From Eledone cirrhosa (taxonomy: Eukaryota): a stretch of DNA of 64,000 bases. This document shows, one piece after another, positions 646 to 44,326 of this stretch (positions are counted from its first letter, which is position 1; the number at the start of each line of letters is the position of its first letter). The notes under the pieces were generated by a model, which was not told the DNA's origin, ran no database searches, and saw only the letters and a program-made list of their open reading frames with translations. Both the position numbers and the translations under genes were made by a program. Where the stretch lies: assembly GCA_964016885.1 (NCBI GenBank), contig OZ024742.1, positions 56,296,001 through 56,360,000 of the forward strand, read 5' to 3'.

Positions 646-1109
646 ATATTGTTATACTTTGGGAGGGTCATGTTGCCAATAAGAAACACACTCACCAGTT
701 GGTTTCACTTCAATTTATTATAATAAATTTATAAATTTAGGAATTTATAAATTTCCGGTTGGTTGGTTGGTTCCGCAACCAGATGGTTGTTTATATATTG
801 TGAAACTTCTTTCGTCACACATTCTGTGACCTCTTCAGTGACTGGGGATTCTTTTCTTTGTTTTTTGTGCCACTTCTTTGTTCTGTCATACGCCAGATGG
901 CGTAGGACAGAACAAAGGAGAGGCACAGAAGGTGTGACGAAAGAACTTTGACAATATATAAACAACCATCTGGTTGTGGAACCAACCAACCAACCAACCG
1001 GAAATTCATAAATTGCTAAATTTATAAATTTATTATAATAAATTGAAGTGAAAGCAACTGGTGCGTGTGTTTCTTATTGGCAACATGACCCTCCCAAAGT
1101 ATAACAATA
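646..1109. repeat. Inverted repeat with ~190-bp arms; related sequence at ~310-530 (-) and ~19840-20070 (+)
   Basis: 646-835 versus 919-1109; shared tattgttatactt.g.gagggtcat motif. Confidence 0.88.
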
Positions 1110-1428
1110 TATATATATATATATTATATATATTTATTAAAATAACAGATTAAGGTTTGAGCAAAGAATCGCTGCTTTCACCCTTAACGTGATCTTCTGA
1201 AACTAACAAAGTCAATCTATTTGTATGTAAGTATATATATATATATATATATATATATATATATATATATATATATATATATATATATACATACATATAT
1301 ATATACATATATACATACATATATATATACATATATATATATATATATACATACATATATATATATATATATATATATATATATATATATATATATATAT
1401 ATATATATATATATATATATATATATAG

Positions 1429-1850
1429 CAATGATATTAATAAATGGAAACTATATTTATAAAACCATATTTATTCTATTATATATATATTTCAAGGGTA
1501 CCAAACTTTGGTACGCACTCATCAGATAAACTACAAAATTTGTTTTATAAATAGTGACATACACAGGAATCAACCCTTGACGGTTCAGGTTCCGTTTGGA
1601 TAACCTGAACTGTTAAGGTCTGATTCCTGGATATGTACTATTTATAAAACATATTTTGTATTTTATCTGATGAGAGCGTACCAAAGTTTTGCTACCCTTG
1701 AAATATATATAATATAATAAATATTGTTTTATAAATATAGTTTCCATTTATTAATATCATTGATATTATACTCCAGAAAACTTGTCGAGCGCTTCAAATC
1801 TGTTATTAATATATTTGTTAAATTACCAACAAATTAAATATCCCTTTGCT
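1429..1850. repeat. Fold-back of family H3 (arms ~1429-1590 and ~1600-1762) with hammerhead-like motifs at ~1474-1533 (-) and ~1660-1718 (+)
   Basis: Arms are reverse complements, homologous to 32335-32807, and both contain CTGATGA...GAAATATATA. Confidence 0.8.
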
Positions 1851-2619
1851 TATATATATATATACATGTATATATATAAATTTTAGTACAGCTTTGACGA
1901 AGCTTTAGAATACGGCCAAACTACTAGCGTATATACATTATCGGTTTGTAGCTTGAGCACTCAGATAATGAAAGACCCCACAGTAATAACATTACGTTCA
2001 GACAGCTTACCAAATCAGAATATATATATATATATATATATATATATGTATATATATATACACATATATATATATATATATATATATATATATATATATA
2101 TATATATATATATATATATTTATATATATATATATATATACACACATATATATATATCAAGTACGCATGTTTTTGAAACGGAGCGAGTTTGAAAATAGAA
2201 ATAGAAGCTTTCGCCGTATTTTTGAATAAAGAAATTTTTTTAGCCTTATAGTGGCTGTGGAGTTTAGAACCCTCTAAGAAACATACACACACACACACAC
2301 ACACACATAAGGTTGTATTCAGTTTCTGGAGTTTCAACTGCGCAGGTGAAAGAGGGGAACTGATTTTGGATTAGAATTTTGGGATCACAACCATAATGTG
2401 TCAGTAATGAGAAGAGAAATAGAAGTATTGTTTCCTTGGTTCGATCTGATGATCGGATCCTTCACTTTCTTTTGTGTGAGACAGCAACAGGAACACCGAA
2501 AATCGGTTTGATATGAGTTTTTGAATTCATTAATAAATATCATTATCTTCATTTTCTGGCAAATATCTTTCCTGTGCAAACTATAAATAAATCTGTATCG
2601 AAATATCGTTGGCAAATAC

Positions 2620-3600
2620 ATTCAACCAAACTCGGCACATTTAAAAAGACAAAAAAATATAGTAAATACTAGTGAAAATCATGGAGGAAATTATTGGCTA
2701 ATATACTCATAAGGTACTGGGACAGTAATAACATATTTCATATAAATATCATGATTCAACAGAACGTGAATCTATGAATAATGAAATAAGAGAAGTAAAA
2801 CAAAAAACAATGGATGCCAAATATTGAAAACTATTTTTAAAAAACTCTAAGAGAAAATAAGAAGATGGAATCATATCAATACTTCATTCAAAAATATGCA
2901 ACTATACACACCCGCACATATATATGTACACACACATATATATATATTATTTATGTTCATACATGGAACAAGAGCGCTATCCAAGCTTTTAAGGCCCAAT
3001 ATAGCCCGTAGCTCCAGAATACAAGAGGGATCAATATTATGACCGAGTTTATAAGGTACCATTGAAAGTAATGCGTGGTTAAAATGCGAGTTTACGATAA
3101 AACTTATTATAACAAAGGGAAATAACTCCAAGATGTAAATTTGAAAATGTTCACATGTGAGAGTTCGTATACTATTGTATTATGTGGTGGAATGCAATAC
3201 AGAGATGGTAATATTTATTAAGATATGGAGTAAGATACAGAAAGTGTATTAGAATATTACAAGATTTTTCATCTGCGAATGATAATTATTTGAACACAAG
3301 CGGCTAAATATTTAGAGGATGTCTCCATCTCAAAACAACAAATTCGACTGATTTTCAACTACTTTAATTTGATATATATACTTCCCTTATATATTTTCCC
3401 TCTCTTTCTCCTTCCCCACTTACATGATACAATAAACTTTCTATTCTACTCTACCCCATACCTGAAAGAATATTGCCGAGCAACGTAAGGCCAGGATAAA
3501 CATATAATATACCGTTGCTGGAACTCAGTTGATACTAACGATGAGCATTTAAACTGTTCAACAACGGAACAGCGTTTATAAACATTCCTTTATAAATGTA
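2620..3600 (+). mobile_element. Possible highly decayed Penelope-like 3' region
   Basis: FTCESSYTIVLCGG near 3148-3200 resembles the segment preceding a GIY-YIG motif, followed by a pyrimidine-rich UTR-like tail. No clean ORF. Confidence 0.35.
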
Positions 3601-41694: not shown

Positions 41695-41714
41695 TATATA
41701 TATATATATATGTA

Positions 41715-42342
41715 TGTATTTATATGTGTATATGTCAGGTCACCAGTTGGTGCTACTGGTAACATGTATACCAGTACAACCTGTCTCATGGTCGGGTCGT
41801 TGGCGACTAAACTGGCAACCCCACCAAGGTTTCTTGGTGAGGAGGGTGACTTTTGACATCCTGCAGGACTAAAAACAAAACCTGTCAAAGGGCAAAGGAG
41901 CTCTTAAGAGTCAATGGCCATCAAAAATCACCGGGAGAGATGACCCCTTAGCCTTTGTCAAGGCAGAATTCTAGAAAGAAAACTCTGATATAACACCTGC
42001 AACCCTGATGGTATCCAATGATGTTGACTTGTTCTTCTTTTTGGTAAATATCATCTTGGTTAAGTGAGTGGGACTGGCTTTGTGCAGTACCGTTGCTCAC
42101 TATAAAAGCTTCACGGCACAGGCATTGCTTTGTATCTGGAGATCTCTCTGCACTTGTCATCACATGGTACCATGGGCCCAGCACTATGTGTCAATAATTG
42201 TCACAAGTGTAGTGTTTGTACCAGAGTTTTCAAATCGCTGGTTGGACTAAAAAGTCACACTCGTTCAGCGCATCGGTAGGGGTTCTCCTACATGGATATA
42301 AAGTAGTGGCCGTACTCGAAAAGGAGTTGGCAGCCACCATAT
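41715..42342 (+). mobile_element. RTE-derived fragment ending in a C2H2 finger; its 3' ~220 nt is repeated at 21068-21291
   Basis: Encodes CSVCTRVFKSLVGLKSHTRSAHR*. A near-identical 3' copy at 21068-21291 has the same end (ggcagccacc) followed by (AT)n. Confidence 0.65.
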
Positions 42343-43127
42343 GTGTATATATATATATATATATATATATATATATATATATATATATATATATATATAG
42401 TATTAAGGATACTATTTATGGTTGTGTATATACTAAAATCTTTTATAGTTATATATATTTTAAACCCTAAATAGTGAAAGACAGTAATTTATTACTACCT
42501 TATTACCAGTAAGATAAATAGCTCAATGTAACAACATCAGTAGTTCTACAGAGCAGTTATATAGAAAATACATGAATCAAAGTTAAAATACAACATTGGC
42601 AGTTTACGAAGATAAAGCAAGAGGATAGTTTGAAGTAGTTAGTGAAGTAGTTATTTTGAAGTAGTTAGTCCTCTTGCTTTATCTTCGTAAACTGCCAATG
42701 TTGTATTTTAACTTTAATTTTGTCGTTTAATATGTCTTTAATCTTTGTATGTATATTGCCATGCTATATTATTATAATGGATGTCAACCCACTGTGCATC
42801 AATATATACATATGTTTCTATGTGTCTCTTGTGTTGGAAACGAGGTCAAGGATGTAAAAAATCATTGAAAAATAGCTCCGAAGACATCAAACCTCGGTTT
42901 GGAAGAAACAATTGTAAGCAAATAAATGGTTTAAACAGAACTTTGATTCATGTATTTTCTATATTTTCTCTCTCTCTCTCTCTCTCTCTCTCTCTCTCTC
43001 TATATATATATATATATATATATATATATATATATATATATATATATATATATATATATATATATATATATATATATATATATATATATATATATATATA
43101 TATATATATATATATATATATATATAT

Positions 43128-44326
43128 ATATGAAAGACGTAAAATAAGAAAATTAAAAAAAAATTAAAAATTAACTTACTTACTAAAATTTTCACTCCAA
43201 CTAATTAGTTTCTGTATTGGGATAAAGATAGTTACGTAATATAACCATCGAGAATTCATTACGTCATCAGGGAGTCTATTCTCAGCTAAGTCTCCAGGCA
43301 ATGCGCGGACACTAGGGAGTCATATAAAAATAATAATAATTCGGTGGAAGGAACAGCTAGCGGGGACTGGATTCCATGCACTGAAAAAGTTCGCTGCCTC
43401 TGGTCAAATGGCAGAATCAATCACGTGACACTGAGGCTAGTCGGAAGGAGTGGGTTGGTAAGTTGACAGAAGCCTACTACCACACCAATGAATTAGTAGC
43501 GGATTTGGCAGATTTGCTCAACAAATAAATAATTTGGTGACGTAATGAATTCTCGATGGTTATATTACGTAACTATCTTTATCCCATTACAGAAACTAAT
43601 TAGTTGGAGTGAACATTTTAGTAAGTAAGTTATTTTTTAATTTTTTTTTAAATTTTCTTATTTTACGTCTTTCATATTATTGTTCTGCGTCCTCCTGCAT
43701 TGAACCACCTAGGTACTATGACATAATTTATGTATTTGCTAGCATTAGTGTACATCTGTACGCATATGTTGGTAGATATACTAATTCTCTGTATTTATCT
43801 CCAAATTATTTATTTGTTGAGCAAACCTGCCAAATCCGCTACTAATTCATTGGTGTGGTAGTAGGCTTCTGTCATCTTACCAACCCACTCCTTCCGACTA
43901 GCCTCAGTGTCACGTGATTGATTCTTTAGAATCTGCCATTTGACCAGAGGCAGCGAACTTTTTCAGTGCATGGAATCCAGTCCCCGCTAGCTGTTCCTTC
44001 CACCGAATTATTATTATTTTTATATGAGTCCCTAGTGTCCGTGCATTGCCTGGAGACTTAGCTGAGAATAGACTCCCTGATGAAGTAATGAATTCTCGAT
44101 GGTTATATTACGTAACTATCTTTATCCCAATACAGAAAGTAATTAGTTGGAGTGAAAATTTTAGTAAGTTAATTTTTAATTTTTTTTTTAATTTTCATAT
44201 TTTACGTCTTTCATATTATTGTTCTGCATCCTCCTGCATTGAACCACCTAGGTACTATGACATAACTTATGTATTTGCTAGCATTAGTGTACATCTGTAC
44301 GCATATGTTGGTAGATATACTAATTC
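43128..44326. repeat. ~540-nt unit: ~410 nt on - joined head-to-head to ~1.5 tandem units on +
   Basis: gtaatgaattctcgatgg recurs at ~43542 and ~44085. 43128-43540 is the reverse complement of ~43800-44215. Confidence 0.88.

What the first reader, a model, noticed from the sequence alone, without database searches (positions are those of the whole stretch)
646..44326. Many unrelated short fold-back insertions in (TA)n tracts, several carrying minimal hammerhead ribozymes
Seen: at least a dozen head-to-head inverted structures (646-1109, 1429-1762, 6650-7232, 10276-10711, 12903-14597, 16191-16665, 21874-22080, 22270-22588, 30369-30546, 32094-32299, 32420-32807, 33055-33838, 36119-36395, 42580-42715, 43128-44326), mostly bounded by (TA)n. 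One arm often runs to a family-specific end and the other is a truncated mirror. At least three unrelated families (H1-H3) contain complete CUGANGA...GAAA...UH folds with palindromic stem III. Established: Penelope-like elements carry minimal type-I hammerheads in their pseudo-LTRs and often insert with inverted or partial-tandem termini. Inference: this is a diverse population of non-coding, ribozyme-bearing Penelope-derived mini-elements that target (TA)n and integrate by a fold-back mechanism. I do not know of it being catalogued in cephalopods.
Basis: partly seen in the sequence, partly recalled or inferred. Interest (0 to 1): 0.85.

Follow-up and report, generated by a model that had tools for sequence, protein, structure and literature searches.

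The report
Two-ended Penelope retrotransposon insertions
The mirror-image stretches are real insertions of Penelope-type jumping genes and their non-coding passengers into TA repeats, a known class, and because one half nearly always stops at a short end and the other at a long end they were likely copied from both broken DNA ends at once rather than by folding back.

Summary
All 15 inverted structures are real, and hammerhead folds exceed shuffles (8 vs 0.08). They belong to 12 repeat families. Four (H2, J, K, H3; probably also H) are truncated 3' ends of ORF-bearing Penelope-like elements (PLEs): Hydra clade, and Neptune/Nematis type for H3. Six are non-coding tandem units of 0.26-1.3 kb; G is unresolved. 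Only 6 of 15 structures come from families with a canonical hammerhead. Simple fold-back is not supported: of 134 classifiable head-to-head pairs, 125 join one short end to one 'tailed' end, none joins two short ends, either arm can be the longer, and 12 pairs share no sequence. This fits twin priming from both target ends at two internal RNA sites. A small hairpin lies just 3' of both sites in Hydra-type families and is visible in published sea-cucumber and coral consensus sequences; I found no description of it. Inverted pLTRs, tails, (TA)n targeting, retrozymes and an Octopus Hydra element are all published. The scan noted similar PLE palindromes in a shark (e1-7858806). Reads did not bridge a junction. 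Verdict: new members of a known kind, with a testable mechanistic lead.

The parts
591..1109 (.). H3 head-to-head insertion: tailed arm on minus (591-~896), short arm on plus; 3' end of a Neptune/Nematis-type PLE; degenerate hammerhead on minus at 838
1429..1850 (.). H2 (older subfamily) insertion: short arm minus, tailed arm plus; hammerheads at 1525(-) and 1667(+); pLTR of a Hydra-clade PLE
5646..6413 (+). H1b partial tandem (439-bp period), two hammerheads (5662, 6100), no inversion
6599..7232 (.). M insertion: tailed arm minus (6599-6734), short arm plus (6770-7231); ~800-bp non-coding partial-tandem family, no hammerhead seen
10268..10789 (.). F insertion: short arm minus, tailed arm plus; hammerheads with long stem II at 10395(-), 10592(+); unit is a 1.26-1.30 kb non-coding tandem repeat
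12900..14597 (.). H1 insertion: 472-474 bp tandem units, short end left (minus), tailed end right (plus); hammerheads at 13193(-), 13777(+), 14251(+), one with truncated stem I at 13667(-)
16191..16665 (.). H1b insertion: tailed arm minus, short arm plus
21874..22080 (.). E insertion: tailed arm minus, short arm plus; E is a ~256-bp hammerhead-less tandem unit in L463
22184..22592 (.). G insertion: tailed arm minus (22184-22439), short arm plus; parent unresolved, no hammerhead seen
30369..30546 (.). E insertion: short arm minus, tailed arm plus
32094..32299 (.). H insertion with two long ends (one of the 9 exceptions); H is probably the end of a Hydra ORF element (one locus, L466)
32334..32807 (.). 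H2 insertion: tailed arm minus, short arm plus; hammerheads 32522(-), 32705(+); pLTR of Hydra-clade PLE
33047..34068 (.). I insertion: short arm minus (33047-33603), tailed arm plus, tail split by microsatellite; ~790-bp non-coding tandem unit, half hammerhead
35973..36395 (.). J insertion: tailed arm minus (35973-36282), short arm plus; pLTR of a second Hydra-clade PLE (ORF follows the tail in L318)
42456..42964 (.). K insertion: tailed arm minus (internally deleted), short arm plus; 3' end of a third Hydra-clade PLE (L464, L465)
43128..44330 (.). L insertion: short arm minus, partial-tandem tailed arm plus; 540-bp non-coding unit with altered hammerhead core

Best explanation
These are 5'-truncated insertions of Penelope-like retrotransposons and of non-coding units that likely borrow their enzyme, and each head-to-head structure likely forms by twin priming, in which both ends of a break in a (TA)n tract are extended on the element RNA from two different internal start sites. 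Shown: fixed short (S) and long (L, 'tailed') ends in every family tested; S+L pairing; ORF-bearing parents for H2, J, K, H3; tandem non-coding units for H1, F, L, I, E, M. From published in vitro work on another clade (Frangieh 2024): the PLE protein cuts and extends both strands, starts at two adjacent internal RNA sites that match the tail borders, and is predicted to be a dimer. Inferred: one protomer starts at S and one at L, each positioned in Hydra-type families by a hairpin 4-8 nt 3' of its start; the two cDNAs stop independently, or both run off the RNA 5' end (giving near-perfect palindromes), and are joined by microhomology or end-joining. The hammerhead is likely not needed for this step.
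For: Pairs: 159 head-to-head pairs in 10 families; both ends classifiable in 134 (25 dropped): S+L 125, L+L 9, S+S 0, against about 67/38/29 if ends were chosen independently (counts; expectation is my arithmetic). In position-ordered samples anchored on sequence common to both arm types: 19 S+L, 1 L+L, 0 S+S. H1 separately: 8 of 8. Either arm can be longer (43 S, 29 L, 41 equal of 113) and 12 of 125 pairs do not overlap. Orientation: among the first 100 exact matches, head-to-head neighbours within 7 kb number 35 (H2) and 28 (H3), tail-to-tail 1 and 2. Arms of one locus share minority variants more than arms of different loci in 7 of 9 families (H2 1.13 vs 0.17%, H3 0.96 vs 0.13%, F 0.76 vs 0.08%, J 0.61 vs 0.05%, K 1.60 vs 0.14%). 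Junctions: 55 of 125 overlap by 1-10 nt, 11 blunt, 55 with inserts, 4 larger overlaps. L102 shows pLTR+tail, ORF, 3' UTR, pLTR, and an inverted tailed copy. Hairpin: a strict pattern is met at 8 of 9 S sites and 3 of 5 L sites of Hydra-type families, with A-U/G-C swaps at two stem positions, vs 0.6% of random positions, and at 0 of 6 sites of H1, H3, M; a search built on this prediction found the E continuation. J's hard 5' end lies ~30 nt below a TATA-like box.
Against: 9 of 134 pairs are L+L, including window 32094-32299. Shared variants are absent in H and I and weak in G, and come from a few loci, so they show a common subfamily, not a common molecule; gene conversion between arms would give the same signal. 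Most samples were top-similarity hits, biased to copies like the query; L233/L234 look like one duplicated locus counted twice. The hairpin pattern was derived from these same sites, so the 0.6% background overstates its significance; J_S, J_L and L_L fail the strict pattern, and per-copy conservation was not counted. The in vitro data are for a Poseidon element, not Hydra. No read or contig shown bridged a junction.
Confidence: 0.68

Rival explanations
1. Fold-back or self-priming: one cDNA (or an antisense RNA, as Arkhipova 2013 proposed) snaps back and is copied, and the endonuclease trims one end to leave the tail.
For: 41 of 113 pairs have arms ending within 10 nt of each other and many junctions are small hairpins; arms share variants; published proposals of self-priming and EN-mediated resolution of the tail.
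Against: The short-ended arm is longer in 43 of 113 pairs and 12 of 125 pairs share no sequence; uninverted copies end at either S or L; equal-length arms cluster at family-specific 5' stops in J, E, G, H, H3, which explains symmetry without copying.
Confidence: 0.14
2. Two-sided priming on two separate RNA molecules (one per protomer), with the S/L asymmetry set by the enzyme rather than by two hairpins on one RNA.
For: Arms overlap in most pairs, which on one RNA needs strand displacement; H and I show no excess sharing.
Against: Strict S+L pairing and excess shared variants in 7 of 9 families; two hairpin copies in tandem on the same strand.
Confidence: 0.14
3. MITE-like DNA transposons with long terminal inverted repeats that target TA.
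For: Short palindromes flanked by TA.
Against: Single-armed and tandem copies, variable inner truncation, unequal outer ends, and continuity with RT + GIY-YIG ORFs. Only G lacks both an ORF link and a tandem unit, but it has the S/L ends and the hairpin.
Confidence: 0.02
4. Assembly or amplification chimeras.
For: No piece shown by read laying bridged the tested junction (contigs of 55-88 nt, uninformative).
Against: Arms differ by 0.7-6.5%, mirrors stop at family-specific ends with unique flanks, tails are one-sided, each locus has its own junction.
Confidence: 0.02

Closest known systems
Hydra-clade PLEs (Craig et al. 2021, PMC8557442), incl. Hydra-1_Obim from Octopus bimaculoides
   Same: C-terminal GIY-YIG, DKT, RWK-like, CxCx5C linker, CxxC and CxH motifs, (TA)n target, hammerhead in the pLTR, inverted 5'-truncated copy, one-sided tail.
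   Different: Craig reported few families outside cnidarians; here a Hydra RT query gave 33,102 first-look candidates and many 730-816 aa open frames. Tails are 80-150 nt, not 30-40. H2 has a ~1.6-kb 3' UTR. By eye H2 and J proteins are not the Hydra-1_Obim family.
Penelope elements of Adineta vaga (Arkhipova et al. 2013, PMC3846280)
   Same: Head-to-head inverted pLTRs, palindromic junctions, tail on one inverted pLTR, TATA + Inr in the pLTR, solo pLTRs acting in trans.
   Different: That paper favours self-priming; the counts here favour two priming events.
Poseidon_Ac in vitro (Frangieh et al. 2024, PMC11167929)
   Same: Two internal RT start sites bracketing the tail, both strands cut and extended, AT-rich target, hammerhead dispensable, predicted dimer.
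   Different: Different clade; in the parts read it does not address inverted insertions or a paired recognition hairpin.
Non-LTR retrozymes (Cervera & de la Pena 2020, PMC7229834; Li et al. 2026 bioRxiv 10.64898/2026.07.22.740005)
   Same: H1 (439-474 bp) and F (1.3 kb) are non-coding tandem units with type I hammerheads, PLE-associated.
   Different: Insertion ends lie hundreds of nt from the cleavage site at S/L sites; head-to-head insertion is common; E, I, L, M lack a canonical hammerhead; circular RNA not tested. 'Inverted' does not occur in the first paper's text.
L1 twin priming (recalled, no call)
   Same: Two target ends primed on one RNA, joined by microhomology, giving an inversion.
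   Different: In L1 one primer uses the poly(A) end and the other a random internal site; here both sites are internal and fixed, and arms usually overlap.

Membership tests
EN+ Penelope-like elements | Single ORF with PLE RT and GIY-YIG endonuclease linked to the repeat | tested here: met
   H2: 678-750 aa frames; H3: RT and EN pieces, Pfam GIY-YIG above cut-off, RVT_1 below it; J; K in 2 loci; H 1 locus, tentative. Pfam found nothing for the H2 ORF.
EN+ Penelope-like elements | pLTRs in partial tandem and/or inverted arrangement | tested here: met
   L102, L101, L091, L092, L099, L100
EN+ Penelope-like elements | Optional tail at one end | tested here: met
   125 of 134 pairs, 8 of 8 for H1
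EN+ Penelope-like elements | Minimal type I hammerhead in the pLTR | tested here: inconclusive
   Fold present in H2, H3 (and H1, F); altered in J; none seen in K, H. Cleavage not testable.
Hydra clade | DKT, RWK-like, CxCx5C linker, CxxC and CxH, no CCHH | tested here: met
   Read in L455/L457/L102 translations against the definition; J N-terminal half shows DKT and RW. L455 itself has one linker cysteine changed.
Hydra clade | Phylogenetic placement with reference Hydra RTs | not tested
   Reference proteins seen only in the supplement; no tree built.
Hydra clade | (TA)n insertion | tested here: met
   227 of 250 ends
Neptune/Nematis clades (H3) | CX2-5CxxC linker before a CCHH-type GIY-YIG | tested here: met
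   L082/L092 translation; which of the two clades was not resolved
Non-LTR retrozymes (H1, F) | Non-coding tandem units each with a type I hammerhead | tested here: met
   H1 longest ORF 76 aa, F 47-83 aa; arrays; no PLE ORF joined to H1 in 63 loci
Non-LTR retrozymes (H1, F) | Self-cleavage and circular RNA | not testable with these tools
   No RNA holder listed (searched with family I)
Non-LTR retrozymes (E, I, L, M) | Canonical hammerhead in the unit | tested here: not met
   better called non-autonomous PLE derivatives
MITEs | Fixed-size element bounded by equal terminal inverted repeats | tested here: not met

The most novel reading that the evidence does not exclude
Hydra-clade PLE RNAs carry two tandem copies of a conserved hairpin, each docking one half of the RT-endonuclease dimer so that both ends of a (TA)n break are primed at fixed sites on one RNA; this pair of hairpins alone, without a ribozyme or ORF, is the mobilisation signal (minimal case: the 256-bp E unit), and it explains PLE tails and head-to-head inversions generally.
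Probability: 0.4. Interest if true: 0.7.

Novelty: new member of a known kind. Interest (0 to 1): 0.45.

Why it matters
How PLEs make tandem and inverted insertions with one-sided tails is named as an open question by Craig et al. 2021. This genome offers thousands of young copies (5,125 exact end matches for H2, 26,818 for H3), intact Hydra ORFs, a clear one-short-one-long rule, and a candidate RNA signal with a 256-bp minimal carrier, so the question can be tested directly in an existing in vitro format. A two-ended, microsatellite-targeted RNA-templated insertion with a compact signal is also of interest for genome writing. The elements themselves are ordinary members of known groups.

Tried and rejected
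Rfam over the whole window: the 150 matches shown of 224 were microRNA-like hits on microsatellites and palindromes, none a hammerhead. First hammerhead scan too strict on stem II. Five of 10 regions were fetched on the wrong side of the element and replaced. Pattern searches for continuations beyond the tail: J none (later found in 1 of 43 tail copies), E none with the first pattern, G two hits that were only microsatellite flanks, so G's parent is unknown. No ORF joined to H1 (63 loci), F, L, E, I, M or G; scattered protein hits in their loci were taken as neighbouring insertions and checked by position only for H1b, K, H, M, I regions. A cap-derived extra G at the hard 5' ends of E, H and J was considered: G is frequent there but junction noise and subfamily differences leave it unproven. 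Sequencing runs: no RNA holder listed; laid contigs were too short to bridge the junction and the RAD reads came from other copies. Look-ups in earlier findings by place, sequence and words gave nothing beyond one note. A shuffle control for long-stem hammerheads and a per-copy count of the hairpin were not obtained. No structure or complex prediction and no large protein search were run.
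Full report
Observation. The window lies at G000:C3:56,296,001-56,360,000 in a 3.0-Gb assembly. Self-BLAST recovers all 15 listed inverted structures and three more. 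A type I hammerhead scan finds 8 folds against a mean of 0.08 (max 2) in 200 shuffles, 5 with palindromic stem III against 0. These belong to H1 and H2; H3 is complete only in copies elsewhere and F has a long stem II. Five families show no core. Rfam barely sees H1 and misses F and H3.

Families. I searched the genome with one arm of each structure (40 best candidates scored per search, 20-30 loci kept) and with exact end patterns. The 15 structures belong to 12 dispersed families. Exact matches: H2 5,125, H3 26,818, F 484, J tail 219. H2 continues 5' through ~1.6 kb of UTR into an ORF with the Hydra-clade motifs defined by Craig et al.; a query with its N-terminal 338 aa gave 33,102 first-look candidates, 119 scored, many in frames of 730-816 aa. 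J's tail runs into a second, broken Hydra ORF in L318; K follows Hydra EN sequence in L464 and L465, and H probably does in L466. H3 follows an RT + GIY-YIG ORF with a Neptune/Nematis-type linker. H1 (439-474 bp), F (1.26-1.30 kb), L (540 bp), I (~790 bp), E (~256 bp, one tandem locus) and M (~800 bp partial tandem) are non-coding repeats. G is unresolved.

Two ends. Every family mapped has two fixed 3' ends, short (S) and long (L), 50-150 nt apart: the PLE 'tail'. In 10 families I found 159 head-to-head pairs; 25 had an unclassifiable end and were dropped; of 134, 125 are S+L, 9 L+L, 0 S+S. In position-ordered samples anchored on sequence common to both arm types the split is 19/1/0; H1, scored apart, is 8 of 8; L was not put through this count. 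Head-to-head neighbours outnumber tail-to-tail 35:1 and 28:2 in the first 100 matches of H2 and H3. Ends sit at (TA)n in 227 of 250 cases.

Fold-back test. A snap-back copy must be contained in the first cDNA. Instead the S arm reaches further 5' in 43 of 113 measurable pairs, the L arm in 29, and 41 are equal within 10 nt; in 12 of 125 pairs the L arm lies wholly in the tail and shares nothing with the S arm. Equal arms cluster at family-specific 5' stops; for J the stop is ~30 nt below a TATA-like box, so these likely are run-offs from the RNA 5' end, i.e. priming on the upstream pLTR of the normal transcript (inference). Arms of a locus share minority variants above the between-locus level in 7 of 9 families, not in H or I; this fits one template but also one subfamily or later gene conversion. 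Arms differ by 0.7-6.5%, which, with unique flanks and one-sided tails, argues against chimeras; the read test was uninformative.

A candidate signal. Just 3' of S in H2, F, G, E, H, I, K and L lies a hairpin with a conserved 4-bp closing stem and variable interior; a second copy lies just 3' of L in H2, F and I. The strict pattern is met at 11 of 14 Hydra-type sites, fails at J_S, J_L and L_L (which show near-versions), and at all 6 sites of H1, H3 and M; background is 0.6% (letters there). Two stem positions change in compensated fashion. The pattern was drawn from these sites, so this is not an independent test. Two partly independent checks: a search requiring the second hairpin after E's L end found one locus, a true tandem continuation also seen in L201; and by eye the published Hydra-1_Ajap consensus has two such hairpins before its ATG, while Hydra-2_Ajap and Hydra-2_Amil have one after an AT-rich spot near the 3' end; Hydra-1_Crog and Hydra-1_Obim are only partial matches.

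Mechanism. Most likely (0.68): the PLE protein cuts both strands of (TA)n and extends both ends on the element RNA, one from S and one from L; the cDNAs are joined at their truncated inner ends (55 of 125 junctions overlap by 1-10 nt). Cutting and extending both strands, two start sites at the tail borders, a dispensable hammerhead and a predicted dimer are reported for Poseidon_Ac. The role of the hairpins, the single RNA and the dimer are inferred.

Literature seen. Craig 2021 (PMC8557442): passages, section 11, supplement parts 2 and 53 and searches: inverted 5'-truncated copies, tail often at one end only, (TA)n bias, Hydra-1_Obim, non-autonomous Chlamys. Frangieh 2024 (PMC11167929): parts 1-2 of 4; its supplements, unread, may show RNA folds bearing on the hairpin. 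Arkhipova 2013 (PMC3846280): passages. Cervera 2020 (PMC7229834): passages. Li 2026 bioRxiv: part 1 of 5 and passages; supplements closed. Bonar 2026 (PMC13282606): part 1 of 3. L1 twin priming is recalled. Searches listed no paper on twin priming in PLEs or on this hairpin, judged from listings; the library lacks most subscription papers, and Repbase/Dfam were not searchable.

Verdict. Observation largely right; PLE link confirmed; 'all non-coding', 'all ribozyme-bearing', 'fold-back' and 'uncatalogued in cephalopods' not upheld. New members of known kinds; the S+L rule with non-nested arms and the paired hairpins make an open mechanistic question testable. Interest 0.45.

Noticed in passing
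window 7324-9656 (+): Decayed full-length PLE with direct pLTRs (7324-7495, 9483-9656), broken RT and a GIY-YIG region with a CxxxxCxxC linker; unrelated to the fold-back families.
   Followed up: partly
window 12031-12138 and 34108-34167 (related copy 2158-2274): Two more small palindromes next to (TA)n with apparent one-sided extensions; probably further PLE ends; not searched.
   Followed up: no
window 35526-38287: Old, ~73-78% identical large inverted repeat that encloses the young J insertion.
   Followed up: no
window 24586-28511, 46000-51500, 54165-64000: Several L1/Tx1-like LINE copies (APE + RT ORF2, Asn-rich ORF1); one at ~55.6-59.3 kb has a long open ORF2.
   Followed up: no
window 3954-4140, 11827-12009, 18948-19050, 31559-31671, 45424-45846: Dispersed SINE-like repeat, also nested inside F in L119.
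   Followed up: no
G000 genome-wide: Hydra-clade PLEs are very abundant here (33,102 first-look candidates, many long open frames), whereas the clade was described as a small group.
   Followed up: partly
L463 downstream of the E array: A perfect ~370-bp palindrome of another family directly after a TA tract; such structures are common in the flanks of most loci.
   Followed up: no
families J and L: Hammerhead-like folds whose second core strand is altered in the typical copy, not just in decayed ones; activity unknown.
   Followed up: partly
L099:5886-6581 and L109:6503-7435: Host-like ORFs beside insertions: a cysteine-rich repeat protein and a 311-aa Ser/Pro-rich exon.
   Followed up: no
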